Source of the DNA: Octopus vulgaris
Lineage: Eukaryota
Reading direction: 5' to 3'
Length of the DNA: 64,000 nucleotides
Assembly: GCA_951406725.2 (NCBI GenBank)
Contig: OX597834.1
Coordinates: forward strand, 32,798,001-32,862,000
The notes beneath the pieces are model-generated. The model had not been told where the DNA came from and did no database searches. It worked only from the letters and a program-made list of their open reading frames with translations. Each line of letters begins with the position of its first letter. The first letter of the stretch is position 1. Of the stretch, positions 28,851 to 63,567 are shown in pieces. A program made the translations under genes and the position numbers.

Positions 28851-28944
28851 CAGAGGTAGAGAGAGAGATAATACACGCACACATATACATATACGTGTAT
28901 AGATATAGACAAAGAACCAAGCAGAGAGTGAGAAAGATATTTCA

Positions 28945-29290
28945 TACATAAACAACGGTATCAGACCTATTATGTTTGTGCTTGGCACAAGTGGAATGTT
29001 CCACTAATACGCCTTGCGTTGATACGTATATGCGTATATTGAATAACAATAAGCATTGTGTATATTTATATGCTGTCCAGTCTTTCCTGCCTCTGGCATT
29101 GTACATTGTTTTAGCAACAACATCTTGTCGTAATGCAAGGTAGTACCTTGGTGACATTTTCGGGTGATTGCTGATCACGTGGCTGATGTCTTCTAACGGA
29201 AGTGTGACATACTTACGCTGTTGCATTATGGGGGTTTTTGAGAGCTTTGCTGTCTCTTTTGTTTGCTTTGAGTTTTCGTAGCTGTTTCTA
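28945..29290 (-). mobile_element. Second R4/Dong-like LINE fragment (zinc-knuckle to endonuclease region)
   Basis: EDISHVISNHPKMSPRYYLALRQDVVAK resembles H..S.C......Y..RHD.VAK; KHNRSD resembles HNRPD. Confidence 0.7.
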
Positions 29291-29315
29291 GCTCTCGCCT
29301 TTGTAAATAATATTT

Positions 29316-31874: not shown

Positions 31875-33503
31875 AGAATTTACAACAAAAAAAAGACAAA
31901 GACAGGTGGTGTAAACAACTAACAGATGTATTAGTTTAACGTTCTGGAAGTGAGAAAGTCTTTTACGTTTCGAGTCTAAGCTCTTGGACAGAAACGAATA
32001 GGCATAGAAAATAAAATAAAATATATATATAGGTACAGGAGTGGCTGTGTGGTAAGTAGCTTGCTTACCAACGACATGGTTCCGGGCTCAATCCCACTGC
32101 ATGGCACCTTGGGCAAGTGTCTTCTACTATAGCCTCGGGCCGACCAAAGCCTTGTGAGTGGATTTGGTAGACGGAAACTGAAAGAAGCCCGTCGTATATA
32201 TATATATATATATCTGTGTGTGTGTGTGTGTTTGTACCCCCCCCCCAACATCGCTTGACAACTGAAGCTAGTGTGTTTACGTCCCCGTAGCTTAGCGGTT
32301 CGGCAAGAGAGAACGATAGAATTAGTACAAGGCTTACAAAGAATAAGTCCTGGGGTCGGTTTGCTCGACTAAAGACTGAAACAAGTAAAAGAGTAAAAGA
32401 GTATATATCTTTCAGTTTCCGTCTACCAAATTCCACTCATAAGGCCTTGGTCAGCCCGCGCTATATGAAAAGACATTTGACCAACGTACCACCCAGTGGG
32501 GGCGAAACCGGAACCATGTGGCTGGGAAGCAAGTTACTTACCGCACAACAACGCCTACGTGGCTGCGTGGTGTGCGTGTGTATAACATTGTTCAGTTTAA
32601 TATCAAGATTTCTTCCCAATAGAAAAAGTGCCGGTTTCTAACCTAGACCTAAGGCTCCTTCATTGGAATTTCAACATCAACAACAGGGTATTTTTGTATG
32701 TTTGTACGTACGTATGTGTACAGATTTGTATGCTTTCTTTTATGTATGTATTCTCATGCATACAGTTACATATCTAGACATGTTCATATATATTTAAACA
32801 ATAAACTTCTAGAAAGTTTTACGGATTTTTACAGTTCCTATGATGGATTGGATCTGCAGTCTTCGAATTAGCTTTCTCCTTTCTGGCTTTGAGAAGCCTA
32901 ATTTCTCAAGATTCGTATTTAGGTAGTGTGTTACATATCCTAGGGCCCCAATATGTATGTATGTACGTACGTACGTATGTATGTATGTATGTATGTATGT
33001 ATGTATGTATGTATGTATGAATGTATGTATGTATGTATGTATGTATGTATGTATGTATGTATGTATGTATGTATGTATGTATGTATGTATGTATGTGTAT
33101 GTATGTATGTATGTGTATGTATGTATGTATGTATGTATGTATGTATGTATGTATGTATGTATGTATGAATGTGTATGTATGTATGTGTATGTAGGTATGT
33201 ATGTATATATGCATGTGTGTGTATGTATGTATGTATGTATGTATGTATGTATGTATGTATGTATGTATGTATGTATGTATGTATGTATGTATGTATGTAT
33301 GTATGTATGTATGTATGTATGTATGTGTGTGTATGTATGTATGTATGTATGTATGTATGTACAATATTAGTATCTAGTCACAAGGACAAATTATTTTGTT
33401 GTTAATTCCTACGATAAAATAATGGCTGACACAATTTTTTTTATTTTCATTTTCAATTTTGTTCCGTGTCAACTTGGTGACTTCATCAGCGGGCAATAAA
33501 TTG

Positions 33504-39849: not shown

Positions 39850-40345
39850 AATTCATATAAGGGACACTCAGTCCTTATGTGTCCTCGTACTCCGTCCGCA
39901 TGTATAGCAATTAGGTCTCCTTCCCTCGGCTACAACGTTTAACGTCATTTCATTCTCAACCTCGATCTGGAAGGGGATTCTCTCGATGTCTTCAGTTGTG
40001 GCGACAAGCCACATTTCGACTCCGAAGCCCCGCCAGTTCAACGTATTTGTTTCACCTACTGGACCCAGTTCGAGTTCGTCCACTGTAGGCGCCAGTATCG
40101 CTGCAACCAACCATTCAGTTTTTATTTCCGGAGGCACTCTCTCGATTTTGACCCTGACGCTTCGTCCTCCTCTGTAGGTGGGCAACAATGCAATCCTTTC
40201 CGTTCTTAGGATGGTGGTGGAGTGCGAGGCCGCCTCTTCCTTAGTGGTAAACCTCACCTCCACCGTACCGAATTTCTTCCCTCTGCCAACATAGGTTGCT
40301 TTTTCCATCACTTCTCCAAGGCACTCTTCAATTTCTTCCTGAACT
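39850..40345 (-). mobile_element. LINE ORF1 (gag-like) fragment with CCHC zinc knuckle broken by a 4-nt duplication
   Basis: RSVRVKIERVPPEI...VVAEGRRPNCYTCG; removing the duplicated CGGA restores CYTCGVRGHIRTECP (CX2CX4HX4C). Confidence 0.85.
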
Positions 40346-40363
40346 TTTTTGTTTTATTTCAAA

Positions 40364-42514: not shown

Positions 42515-42794
<280 letters not shown>

Positions 42795-43315
42795 TCAAGA
42801 CATCATAAAGAAGAATGGAGGATTTATACATCTTCAAAACTTGTTTATTACATTTTTTATTCTCATTAAATTCACATTAGATTGCAATCCGACACGTGTT
42901 TCTGCTGCATAAGTGTCGTAACGCCAATTGCACCAGTATTTATGTGCATTCAGTTGACTTAAATTTAAAATTAGTTGCAGTGCAGATTTATCCATGGTAG
43001 AAACTCCTATACGGCTCTGTTCAATGCTTTGCCCATGCCAGTGGGTGAAACGCATCCACCCACATGGGTGAAACGCATCTGCCCACATGGGTGAAACCTT
43101 GAAGAAAGCTGCATAAGAACATCTACTCTTGATGAATAAGTATTGCAACTGAACCGGCTAAATGCACATAAATGTTGCACTAAAGGAAATGAGGATACTT
43201 ATGCAGCAGAAACACGTGTCGGATTGGAATCTACCGTGAATTTGATGAGAATAATTCTTTAAAAAAACAAGTTTTGAAGACTTATAATTCTCCATTCTTC
43301 CTTACGATATCTCGA
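42795..43315. mobile_element. Penelope-like inverted-repeat element beside a ~260 bp (TA)n tract, with a hammerhead-like motif at 43097-43222 (+)
   Basis: ~120 bp inverted arms (42795-42914 and 43197-43315); UUGAAGA, 10 bp stem GCUGCAUAAG/CUUAUGCAGC, GAA-ACACGUGU-C. Confidence 0.65.
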
Positions 43316-43528
43316 TTATCTGCTCTGTATGCCGTATAAAGTCCAGTGACGCCAACTTAGGGTTTACCCACCGAGTAAAGTACCGTGTACGTGTTTATTT
43401 TAAACAATTTTACAGGTTCGATGTGGTTAACCGGAACTAGGATTATATTCGAGTGTTAATAAGGTACCTGCCCGGATTCCAAATTTCCATTTATGTGTTT
43501 TATATATATATATTTACATATGTGCATA

Positions 43529-43595: not shown

Positions 43596-43803
43596 CGGGA
43601 AGCTTTATGAAAATAAACAAAAGACGAAGGCAGGTGGAATACAAACAAACAATTGTATTAGTATGGCGCTCAGGAATATAAATAAAACAAGTCTTTTACG
43701 TTTCGAGCCTACGCTCTTCAACAGAAAGATACACAGAAAAGAAACACGGAGAGAAACAAGGAGAGAAAAAAATGCGTGCAGAAACTCGCGAATCAACATG
43801 GCA
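43593..43803 (-). mobile_element. ~210 bp non-autonomous element in (TA)n with a minimal hammerhead-like motif at 43693-43728
   Basis: Near-identical copy at 63357-63567; motif CUUU-CUGUUGA-A-GAGC-GUAG-GCUC-GAA-ACGU-A-AAAG. Confidence 0.8.
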
Positions 43804-48692: not shown

Positions 48693-48727
48693 ATTTAACG
48701 TTTCGAGCGGTGCTCTTCGTCAGAAAT
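48693..48727 (-). ncRNA. Minimal type I hammerhead motif with intact core
   Basis: AUUU-CUGACGA-A-GAGC-ACC-GCUC-GAA-ACGU-U-AAAU. Confidence 0.75.
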
Positions 48728-52626: not shown

Positions 52627-52688
<62 letters not shown>

Positions 52689-52689
52689 A

Positions 52690-53625
52690 GATTTGTAACG
52701 GTAACACACGAGTAAGTAGATATTTATGAAAAACAAGAACGAAAATGCTACTTTCTTAAAATTGAGTTCATTTTAATTTCCCTTTTATATGTTTCGGATT
52801 TTGAAAAAAAAACCTTACCAAAAATATGTACTAAAATGGAATATGTAAAGAGAAAAGAACTATTAAAAAAATTAAATTAAGATTAAATTTAACATTCATA
52901 GTTTACTCTCCGTTTTCCTGCAAGAACACGTGATAATATCCTTTGGATCTGATAGCATGACAAGTTCAACTGACTGTGACCGCGAATTACTATTATCTGT
53001 TTTCAAAACGGATACTAGTAATTTGCGGTCACAGTCAGTTGAACTTATGCTACCAGAACCAAAGAATATCACGTGCTCTTGCAAGAAAAAAAAGTAAACT
53101 ATGATTGTTAAATTTAATTTAATTTTTTTAAATAGTTCTTTTTCTTTACATATTCCATTTTGGTGCATATTTTTGATAAGGTTTTTTTCTCAAAACCCGG
53201 AACATGTAAAAAGGAAATTAAAATGAACTCAATTTTAAGAAAGTAGCATTTTCGTTCTTGCAACGTGGAAGGTGTTTGTAAGCCATTTAAGAAACACACA
53301 AAAGCCGTTCGATTCACTTCAACATTTGTCAAAATATTTTCCTCGCTAAAATCCGCGACCTGTTCACTGACAAAAATCCGTGCTGCATTTTTGTCAGTGA
53401 ACAGGTCGCGGATTTTAGCGAGGAAAATATATTGACAAATGTTGAAGTGAATCGAACGGCTTTTGTGTGTTTCTTAAATGGCTTACAGACACCTTCCACG
53501 CTGCAATTGTTTTCGTTCCAGCACACGATCTCAGATCAAATCACTTGCTATGCGAGTACATCTCCGTAATTTTCGTTCTTGTTTTTCATAAATATCTACT
53601 TACTCGTGTGTTACCGCTACAAATC
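52690..53625. mobile_element. Y-shaped fold-back element: ~57 bp outer inverted repeats enclosing two long hairpins
   Basis: Outer arms 52690-52746 and 53569-53625; hairpin 1 ~52735-52991 and 53017-53260; hairpin 2 ~53260-53377 and 53387-53505. Confidence 0.88.
53325..53374 (-). ncRNA. Hammerhead-like motif with G3-C8 core variant; inverted copy at 53390-53439 (+)
   Basis: UUUGUCA-GUGAACA-G-(G)UCGC-GGAUUUUA-GCGA(G)-GAA-AAUAUU-U-UGACAAA. Confidence 0.55.
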
Positions 53626-53832
53626 CTTAGATTGAGGTTCAGGAAGAATGAAAACTTATTTGACGTTTCGAGCATACGCTCATCCACGGAGAAGAATAAA
53701 AGGGAGAGAAGAAAGTGTGCCTAGATTTACTGTTTCACATACTTATTGCATGTATGTATGTATGTATGTATGTATGTATGTATGTATGTATGTATGTATG
53801 TATGTATGTATGTATGTATGTGTATGTATATG

Positions 53833-57309: not shown

Positions 57310-57528
57310 TTATTTGCCAACATAACATGGCAGTCCTGGTTTAGGACAAATGTTGCCGTAATTTAGCCTCTGGAGACATCGTCTCCAGCTGGCCATACGA
57401 CACGATCTGCGTCCTTATATTTTCGACACAGATGGAGTCGTATAGCCAGCTGGAGACGATGTCTCCTGGGGCTAAATTACAGCAACATTTGTCCTAAACC
57501 AGGACTGCCATGTCACGTTGGCAAATAA
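57310..57528. mobile_element. Fold-back MITE with ~90 bp inverted arms
   Basis: TTATTTGCCAAC..GGCAGTCCTGGTTTAGGACAAATGTTGC..GGAGACATCGTCTCCAGCTGGC is mirrored after a ~45 bp spacer. Confidence 0.8.
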
Positions 57529-60426: not shown

Positions 60427-60464
60427 CAGTTGAAAAGGTCTCAAAATGACCGAAACCGGTACTG
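60427..60464 (+). ncRNA. Minimal hammerhead motif with U3-A8 core variant
   Basis: CAG-UUGAAAA-GGUC-UCAAAAU-GACC-GAA-ACCGGU-A-CUG. Confidence 0.72.
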
Positions 60465-60586: not shown

Positions 60587-60767
60587 CAAAGTGGAGTTGT
60601 AGGGTACCGCACGAGTGGAATTAAATACGAAAGGTTTGAAAATGCAATTTTTAAAAATTGCATTTTCAAACCTTCTTTCGTATATATATATATATATTTC
60701 AAAATGTAACCGGGTGTATCGTTGGTGATTTACTTCCTCCGTCTTCCCTTCCTTTGGACTCTACTCC

Positions 60768-60802
60768 ATTTCTGACGAAGAGCAAAGCTCGAAACGTTAA
60801 AT
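60768..60802 (+). ncRNA. Minimal type I hammerhead motif with intact core
   Basis: AUUU-CUGACGA-A-GAGC-AAA-GCUC-GAA-ACGU-U-AAAU. Confidence 0.75.
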
Positions 60803-63359: not shown

Positions 63360-63567
63360 CGGGAGGCTTTATGAAAATAAACAAAAGACGAAGGCAGGTG
63401 GAAAACAAACGAACAATTGTATTAGTATGGCGCTCAGGAAATATAAATAAAACAAGTCTTTAACGTTTCGAGCCTACGCTCTTCAACAGAAAGATACACA
63501 GAGAGAGAAAAACACAGAAAGAAGGAGAAAAAAAATGCGTGCAGTAGCTAACGAATCAACATGGCGA
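63357..63567 (-). mobile_element. ~210 bp non-autonomous element in (TA)n with hammerhead-like motif at 63458-63493
   Basis: Close copy of 43593-43803. Confidence 0.8.

What the first reader, a model, noticed from the sequence alone, without database searches (positions are those of the whole stretch)
52690..53625. ~940 bp Y-shaped fold-back element with two inverted G3-C8 hammerhead-like motifs at one hairpin tip
Seen: 57 bp outer inverted repeats close a structure with a ~255 bp-arm hairpin and a ~118 bp-arm hairpin (9 nt loop). The short hairpin has a hammerhead-like motif on each strand. The GAACGAAAAT segment is shared by the outer stem and hairpin 1, so alternative folds are possible. 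Both motif copies share a G-G mismatch at the stem II closing pair, suggesting one arm was copied from the other. Inference: repeated snap-back priming during PLE-type reverse transcription. A transcript would be long dsRNA, a potential ADAR or siRNA substrate.
Basis: partly seen in the sequence, partly recalled or inferred. Interest (0 to 1): 0.72.

Follow-up and report, generated by a model that had tools for sequence, protein, structure and literature searches.

The report
Nested Penelope-type ribozyme hairpin insertions
The Y shape is two repeat hairpins, one sitting inside the other between two copies of a 13-letter stretch, and both are likely ordinary insertions of ribozyme-carrying Penelope-type retrotransposon ends in a probable octopus genome rather than one functional element.

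Summary
The inverted repeats and hammerhead-like motifs are real, but the Y is not a unit. The 'shared segment' is a 13-nt direct repeat (53248-53260 = 53569-53581) around an insert; removing the insert leaves one 615-bp hairpin (X). Contigs of four public runs put the insert (Z, 53258-53570) in a family with about 100- to 1000-fold more summed depth than X. Z is a head-to-head pair: an inverted partial copy plus a forward copy with a 64-nt extra tail, both starting at recurring family ends; 11 of 15 listed joints show other head-to-head Z copies. In the family majority the stem II closing pair is intact, so the G-G mismatch is a defect of this copy, shared by both arms. X carries a second, overlooked U3-A8 hammerhead-like pair. 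This matches the published Penelope-like layout (inverted pseudo-LTR, one-sided tail, short target duplication); no partner protein was found. In the full fold the ribozyme stems tested do not form, and no evidence of transcription or editing was obtained. Unexplained: X's outer 92 nt are 99% identical, its inner arms about 85%, with the boundary near the predicted cut. New member of a known kind; interest 0.3.

The parts
52627..52684 (.). (AT)n microsatellite on the left flank, 5 nt before the outer arm
52690..53003 (-). Hairpin X, left arm (inverted copy of a medium-copy repeat; sense on minus)
   Evidence: one 314-nt contig covers 52688-52976 at about 88%, 31/38/17/0 contigs show the majority letter at 52818
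52783..52824 (-). U3-A8 minimal hammerhead-like motif, degenerate (one core change at 52818, one loop-3 change at 52788); predicted cut after 52786
   Evidence: majority letters table 3 conform to the core at 52818 (all depth in the 3 runs that cover it) and to the palindrome at 52788 (82-92%)
53005..53260 (+). Hairpin X, right arm, inner part
   Evidence: records 7 and 23 match 53035-53258 and 53035-53244 with 1 other letter and 3 gap letters at the depth of ordinary single contigs
53170..53211 (+). U3-A8 minimal hammerhead-like motif, degenerate (one core change at 53200); 6-bp stem II, palindromic loop 3, 3-bp stem I; predicted cut after 53208
   Evidence: 0 of 2000 shuffles of the arm give a hit at these thresholds (set after seeing the motif)
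53248..53260 (+). Target-site duplication, first copy (13 nt; 8 nt if the 3- and 2-nt overlaps with the insert ends are not counted)
53258..53389 (-). Insert Z, inverted partial copy; begins at the family's short 3' end and runs to the family's 5' end
   Evidence: loose ends at 53388 in 78/107/50/9 contigs
53325..53374 (-). G3-C8 minimal hammerhead-like motif: 7-bp stem I, extra base after A9, stem II with broken closing pair, palindromic stem III
53378..53389 (.). Tip of the short hairpin: 9-nt loop that is inverted-copy sequence, joined to the forward copy over a 3-nt overlap
53387..53570 (+). Insert Z, forward copy, ending at the family's long 3' end
   Evidence: loose ends at 53569 in 52 contigs of X1 and at 53570 in 75/81/42/7 contigs
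53390..53439 (+). G3-C8 minimal hammerhead-like motif, forward copy; G at 53422 where the family has C; predicted cut after 53432
53507..53570 (+). One-sided 64-nt tail of Z (between the family's two recurring 3' ends)
   Evidence: loose ends at 53507 in 19 contigs of X4 (only listed there) and at 53569/53570
53569..53581 (+). Target-site duplication, second copy
53582..53625 (+). Hairpin X, right arm, outer part displaced by the insert
53626..53720 (-). Flanking, 3'-truncated copy of a third repeat family with a degenerate canonical C3-G8 hammerhead
   Evidence: 72-84% matches to 4 other places in the window

Best explanation
The Y is a 615-bp hairpin (X) with a second, younger hairpin (Z) sitting in its right arm between two copies of a 13-nt stretch, and both hairpins are likely head-to-head insertions of short, non-coding Penelope-type ends that carry minimal hammerhead motifs. 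Shown: the nesting, the duplication, the two repeat families, the two 3' ends of Z, the shared private changes. Inferred mechanism for Z: a Penelope-type endonuclease/reverse transcriptase cut both strands of the target 8-13 nt apart and primed both ends on Z RNA, the top strand at the short start site (equivalent to 53506) and the bottom strand at the long one (53570). The top-strand cDNA ran to the RNA's 5' end and was continued over a 3-nt overlap, either by folding back on itself or by annealing to the second cDNA; fill-in gave inverted copy + forward copy + one-sided tail + duplication. X likely arose earlier in the same head-to-head way from another family; its arms then diverged and the outer 92 nt were later made alike again, probably by template switching or conversion. 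The motifs in this copy are predicted to be inactive: each has a core or closing-pair defect, and the stems tested are sequestered in the long duplex.
For: Exact 13-nt direct repeat at both insert ends, not extendable, whose removal restores arm-to-arm alignment (per-base match 0.28, 7e-8 for 13 nt at a given pair of places, 4e-5 for 8 nt). Summed contig depth 1.9e5-3.0e6 in the nine bins 53262-53585 against 93-6970 in the 17 X bins of run X1, same step in all 4 runs (table 2). Family ends coincide with the insert's junctions (table 7). 11 of the 15 joints shown (124 not shown) join the inverted 5' end (53380-53389) to a forward copy starting at varying places 53437-53546; one joint shows another X copy folding back at a different place (52875/52929, runs X1 and X4). 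Family majority keeps G10.1-C11.1: 97-99% of depth at 53342 and all depth at 53422 in 4 of 4 runs. Motif has the minimal-hammerhead traits listed by PMC4209133. Layout equals that described for Penelope elements in PMC3846280 (inverted pLTR, tail on one side, 8-10 bp TSD) and PMC8557442; PMC11167929 shows cutting and extension of both strands, two RT start sites bounding the tail, and an ATT cut preference; the duplication here begins with ATT.
Against: No autonomous Penelope ORF could be tied to X or Z: Pfam 0 of 3 frames, no homolog for a 60-aa Z frame among longer proteins, one spurious hit for a 37-aa X frame. The tail (64 nt) is longer than the published 30-40 nt. The short 3' end is listed for one run only. 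The snap-back hairpin at the tip has no predicted stability. X has no target-site duplication and its hammerhead has only a 3-bp stem I with thresholds chosen after the fact. No listed contig spans either tip or any X-Z junction by 31 letters on both sides. Identity of X's outer arms (91 of 92) against about 85% inside (P 0.0006 for the outer end, 0.017 anywhere) is not predicted by this model and needs an added event.
Confidence: 0.72

Rival explanations
1. The Y is one mobile or functional unit made by repeated snap-back, with a structural switch and a dsRNA role.
For: Very stable branched fold; the 13-nt segment can pair with either copy.
Against: Parts differ 100- to 1000-fold in depth; target-site duplication explains the shared segment; arms of the two hairpins differ in age; longest listed piece covers 289 of 1060 nt; stem II pairs of the two plus-strand motifs have probability 0 in the full fold.
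Confidence: 0.04
2. Z first inserted as a plain forward copy; the inverted arm was added later by a replication template switch.
For: Would also give arms sharing private changes and 3-nt overlaps at both junctions; template switching at inverted repeats is documented (PMC8604942 passages).
Against: The inverted arm starts exactly at the edge of the duplication and at a recurring family 3' end, and ends at the family 5' end; many other Z copies are head-to-head with the same 5' end.
Confidence: 0.08
3. Z is a SINE-like RNA mobilised by a LINE (RTE or L1/Tx1 type) with twin priming, not by a Penelope-like element.
For: 13-nt duplication with short overlaps at both ends and 5' inversions are known LINE traits (own knowledge); LINE fragments are in the window and LINEs and unclassified SINEs are abundant and active in Octopus vulgaris (PMC13282606).
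Against: No poly(A) or tandem 3' tail; fixed 3' ends 74 and 138 nt after a minimal hammerhead; inverted duplication of 120 nt rather than inversion without duplication.
Confidence: 0.1
4. X is a fold-back DNA transposon (MITE) with long imperfect terminal repeats, into which Z inserted.
For: Best arm identity at the outer ends, as in many terminal-repeat elements; MITEs are reported in O. vulgaris.
Against: No target duplication; one-base tip; another copy folds back elsewhere and listed contigs run on 27-179 letters unlike the window near the tip (tables 5, 8); hammerhead-like motif 96 nt from each outer end, like the about 100 nt of the canonical families in the window.
Confidence: 0.12
5. 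Assembly artefact (fold-back chimeric reads).
For: No contig or long read spanning the tips was seen; Penelope inversions are known to trouble assemblies.
Against: Arms differ by 35 of 314 columns and 3 of 120; an exact duplication and family-typical ends would not arise from a chimera; the right arm is found almost letter for letter in 2 independent runs. Polishing cross-talk in the outer 92 nt alone is not excluded.
Confidence: 0.03

Closest known systems
Inverted pseudo-LTR insertions of Penelope-like elements (Adineta vaga Pen2/Pen2a, PMC3846280; general layout in PMC8557442)
   Same: Head-to-head inverted copy, extension on one arm only, short target duplication, short overlap at the inverted junction, insertion into another Penelope-type copy, AT-rich surroundings.
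   Different: No ORF between the repeats; unit only about 190 nt; tail 64 nt instead of about 31; forward copy nearly full length, so 120 nt are duplicated.
Minimal type I hammerheads of metazoan PLEs (PMC4209133)
   Same: Core boxes with a compensated 3-8 pair, extra base between 9 and 10.1, G10.1-C11.1 in the family majority, palindromic stem III; dual motifs 100-700 bp apart on opposite strands were already seen in Schistosoma, as was U3-A8.
   Different: G3-C8 rather than C3-G8 or U3-A8. In the parts read G3-C8 appears only as an engineered, partly active double mutant (PMC11167929, PMC8495972); Lunse et al. (PMC5785218), which from recall describes further natural core variants, was not available.
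Poseidon PAc of Anolis (PMC11167929)
   Same: Both strands extended; two RT start sites downstream of the hammerhead bounding a tail; ATT preference.
   Different: PAc is autonomous, with starts about 85-92 nt after the cut; Z ends lie 74 and 138 nt after it.
Animal non-LTR retrozymes (PMC7229834; bioRxiv 10.64898/2026.07.22.740005)
   Same: Short non-coding repeats with a type I hammerhead, proposed PLE derivatives.
   Different: Retrozymes are head-to-tail tandem units of about 170-400 nt; this copy is head-to-head. Head-to-tail Z joints appear only in run X4.

Membership tests
Minimal type I hammerhead of PLEs (Z motif) | Core boxes N3-UGA-N-N8-A and GAAA with a paired 3-8 position | tested here: met
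   G3-C8 on both arms. No other letter at these places among the 40 rows shown (85 rows not shown).
Minimal type I hammerhead of PLEs (Z motif) | G10.1-C11.1 closing pair, in this copy | tested here: not met
   G opposite G in both arms; this copy is therefore filed as degenerate, not as a ribozyme.
Minimal type I hammerhead of PLEs (Z motif) | G10.1-C11.1 closing pair, in the family majority | tested here: met
   97-99% of depth at 53342, all depth at 53422, 4 of 4 runs.
Minimal type I hammerhead of PLEs (Z motif) | Extra base between 9 and 10.1; palindromic stem III; stem I | tested here: met
   Minus-strand copy: one extra base, 6-nt palindrome, 7-bp stem I; plus-strand copy has one change in the palindrome.
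Minimal type I hammerhead of PLEs (X motif) | Core, stem II, palindromic loop 3, stem I | tested here: inconclusive
   One core change per arm at different places, 6-bp stem II, 3-bp stem I, no extra base after A9; 0 of 2000 shuffles, thresholds post hoc; majority letters only partly conform (53200: 38% X1, 76% X4; 52795 shows another letter in 16-53%).
Minimal type I hammerhead of PLEs | Self-cleavage (as a dimer) | not testable with these tools
   Needs an in vitro assay.
Penelope-like element insertion | Inverted 5' copy in head-to-head orientation | tested here: met
   This locus and 11 of 15 joints shown.
Penelope-like element insertion | One-sided 30-40 nt tail between two start sites | tested here: inconclusive
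   One-sided tail present but 64 nt; short end listed in one run (19 contigs).
Penelope-like element insertion | Short target duplication in AT-rich DNA (Z) | tested here: met
   8-13 nt. None found for X.
Penelope-like element insertion | Sequence shared with the pLTR of an RT + GIY-YIG ORF | tested here: inconclusive
   Short peptide queries found nothing; no genome held. Membership is therefore likely, not shown.
Non-LTR retrozyme | Head-to-tail tandem units each with a hammerhead | tested here: not met
   Head-to-head at this locus; two head-to-tail joints of high depth in X4 only (table 5c) leave the family open.
Non-LTR retrozyme | Circular RNA | not testable with these tools
   Only contigs available.
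MITE / fold-back DNA transposon (X) | Target duplication at the ends of the terminal repeats | tested here: not met
   No direct repeat abutting both ends.
MITE / fold-back DNA transposon (X) | Copies recur as a whole with the same centre | tested here: inconclusive
   No listed contig crosses the tip; one other copy folds at 52875/52929; contigs cannot show absence.

The most novel reading that the evidence does not exclude
Hairpin X is a palindromic retroelement that moves as a unit and regenerates its outer ends at the ribozyme cut: its arms are identical from the outer end to within about 2 nt of the predicted hammerhead cut (52787 against 52786, once the change at 53212 that runs X1 and X4 lack is set aside) and diverged inside it, as LTRs are reset in each cycle. 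Together with a very abundant natural G3-C8 hammerhead family whose head-to-head copies record two-strand priming, this would give a genome-wide readout of how Penelope-type ribozymes act in transposition.
Probability: 0.08. Interest if true: 0.7.

Novelty: new member of a known kind. Interest (0 to 1): 0.3.

Why it matters
As a locus it matters little: a nested pair of dead repeat insertions. The family behind it has some value. How Penelope-like elements make inverted and tailed insertions is called an open question in PMC8557442, and PMC11167929 has only begun to answer it in vitro. Z is short, likely present in thousands of copies, and has two 3' ends and many head-to-head junctions, so one octopus assembly would allow a count of which start site primes which strand and of snap-back against two-cDNA joining. 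A natural G3-C8 core kept at high copy number would also test whether slow ribozyme chemistry matters to these elements. Such hairpins are easily mislabelled as MITEs or SINEs in cephalopod repeat libraries.

Tried and rejected
Rfam at gathering thresholds: 0 matches in the window; minimal hammerheads are missed by it. No whole genome is held. Other copies of X or Z inside the window: none. Pattern scans: X pattern 0 hits in metagenome contigs; Z patterns 1 hit in viral contigs and 1 in metagenome contigs, both without similarity beyond the pattern on reading, rejected as chance. Earlier findings: 3 look-ups, nothing. Protein link to a Penelope ORF: nothing. No RNA holder listed; run X11 is only guessed to be RNA, holds Z far more than X, and shows A>G at 5 of 21 places against 15 of 79 in DNA run X1; contigs cannot show level, strand or editing, so this is not used either way. 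Snap-back stability at either tip: none predicted. My first reading of contig depths of 30-55 as 30-55 copies was dropped: such depths are those of ordinary single contigs in these runs. The left-arm letter at 52818 is in no contig, and record 7 runs unbranched through the stretch shared by both arms; contigs drop rare variants, so no conclusion was drawn. Viroid-like ambisense circle, densovirus terminus and DIRS-type ends were considered and dropped: the arms are copies of genomic repeats and the branch is explained by the duplication. The relaxed descriptor at whole-window scale gives 0-2 chance hits per shuffle (3 shuffles), so single weak hits elsewhere are not claimed.

Full report
Context. 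The window is AT-rich, full of microsatellites and SINE/LINE fragments. The only named protein hit for a window ORF (39871-40353) is from Octopus bimaculoides at 46% identity (1 of 2 hits); I take the host to be an octopus, which is likely but not shown. No genome was held, so evidence from elsewhere rests on contigs of 4 of the 24 listed public runs (20 hold part of the stretch; organisms A, B, C laid, D not).

Observation. The G3-C8 motifs are there on both strands, with G opposite G at 10.1-11.1, and are beyond chance: a descriptor demanding stems I, II and a palindromic stem III gives 3 hits in the window (the minus-strand motif and two canonical C3-G8 motifs) and 0 in 30 shuffled windows.

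The Y is a nest. 53248-53260 and 53569-53581 are the same 13 letters, not extendable either way. Leaving out what lies between gives a single 615-bp hairpin X whose arms align end to end (279 of 314 columns). Laid contigs confirm two families: in X1 the nine bins over 53262-53585 have summed depth 1.9e5 to 3.0e6, the 17 X bins 93 to 6970; the step is seen in 4 of 4 runs. The longest listed piece covers 289 of 1060 nt; 32 pieces were shown, 28,668 not.

Insert Z. Loose ends mark the family's 5' end at 53388 (on the inverted arm) and 3' ends at 53569/53570 and, in X4 only among the rows shown, 53507. The inverted arm starts at the place equivalent to 53506 and the forward copy ends at 53570, so the unpaired 64 nt are a tail on one arm. 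The 9-nt loop is inverted-copy sequence and the arms join over a 3-nt overlap; the outer junctions overlap the target by 3 and 2 nt. Of 15 joints shown (124 hidden), 11 join the inverted 5' end to a forward copy at varying starts, several in more than one run: head-to-head insertion is normal for this family. The family majority has C at 53422 (all depth, 18/18/6/2 contigs) and G at 53342 (97-99%), so the closing pair is intact; it also has about 7 more letters near 53327/53437 and another stem II loop near 53353.

Majority letters conform at 52818 and 52788, less clearly at 53200 and 52795. The right arm is matched with 1 other letter in X1 and X4, probably the same locus in other animals. 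One other X copy folds back at a different place. No target duplication was found; the right end cuts into a third, canonical-hammerhead repeat. The arms are 91 of 92 identical outside and about 85% inside (27 events; P 0.0006 or 0.017); the step lies at the predicted cut within the resolution of about 8 nt that the differences allow. Conversion or template switching is the plain explanation; the coincidence is the basis of the novel case.

Mechanism. PMC3846280 (11 passages) describes Penelope copies with an inverted pLTR, a tail on one inverted repeat, 8-10 bp duplications, nesting in other Penelope copies, and reads junction palindromes as self-priming. PMC11167929 (parts 1-2 of 4, the whole main text) shows both target strands cut and extended, two RT starts bounding the tail, ATT preference, and partial activity of the engineered C3G/G8C core. 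PMC4209133 (parts 1-2 of 4) defines the minimal hammerhead traits and reports U3-A8 and opposite-strand pairs. From these I infer two-strand priming at Z's two start sites. The loop's orientation means that any snap-back happened on the top-strand cDNA, which cannot supply the tail, so a second priming is needed in every version. Snap-back explains the shared changes most simply but has no predicted stability; annealing of two cDNAs from one source is the alternative. These steps are inferred; the protein partner was not found.

Function. In a transcript of the plus strand the stem II pairs of both plus-strand motifs have probability 0 (minus strand not computed), and every motif here has a defect. 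A read-through RNA would be duplex, like that of any inverted repeat, but nothing shows that the locus is transcribed or edited.

Literature on novelty. Searches for hammerhead + octopus + Penelope, hammerhead + cephalopod + ribozyme + genome, G3-C8 terms and twin priming + Penelope + inverted returned no description of these families. Also seen: PMC8557442 (12 of 21 passages), bioRxiv 10.64898/2026.07.22.740005 (part 1 of 5), PMC13282606 (part 1 of 3 and passages; 31 recently active Penelope-like families, 893 unclassified SINE families, no mention of ribozymes), PMC6765202, PMC7229834, PMC8604942, PMC6962438, PMC6155905, PMC8495972 (passages); PMC3884650 (search listing only). Lunse et al. 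(PMC5785218) was not held; that it covers natural core variants is recalled, not read. No supplements or repeat libraries were opened, and Z or X may be listed there under another label.

Verdict. Observation confirmed; interpretation partly supported. A one-off nest of two likely Penelope-type hairpin insertions; new member of a known kind; interest 0.3.

Noticed in passing
window 42790-43330: Another long fold-back beside (TA)n, arms about 78% alike in the outer 150 columns, short tandem repeats at the centre; no hammerhead hit with my descriptor.
   Followed up: partly
window 57310-57528 and 60622-60686: Two further palindromes (88% over 219 nt; a 65-nt hairpin), so fold-backs are common in this window.
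   Followed up: no
window 48697-48723 (-), 60772-60798 (+), 43697-43724 (-), 63462-63489 (-); degenerate near 31960, 52284, 52550, 53660: At least two families of short repeats with canonical C3-G8 minimal hammerheads, several beside (TA)n; Rfam misses all.
   Followed up: partly
window 60430-60461 (+): Further U3-A8 candidate with intact core, 4-bp stem II and a 6-nt palindrome; single weak hit.
   Followed up: no
table 5c, joints 53376 to 53324 and 53377 to 53266 (run X4): High-depth head-to-tail joints (3227 and 1588) that imply tandem units of about 59 and 115 nt holding the G3-C8 motif in organism B; possible retrozyme-like arrays allowing dimer cleavage.
   Followed up: no
window 53373-53388 (-): An ATG lies 15 nt before the Z core, recalling the ORF start that overlaps the hammerhead in PAc; the frame stops after 19 codons here.
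   Followed up: partly
window 52892-53002 (-) and 53006-53101 (+): One reading frame stays open in both inner arms of X (37 and 32 aa, 69% identical); could be the end of a parent ORF, no hit found.
   Followed up: yes
window 2198-2767, 13210-14076, 28942-29313, 39868-40353: Fragments that look like LINE reverse transcriptase, DNA transposase, restriction-like endonuclease and LINE ORF1 (labels from own knowledge).
   Followed up: no
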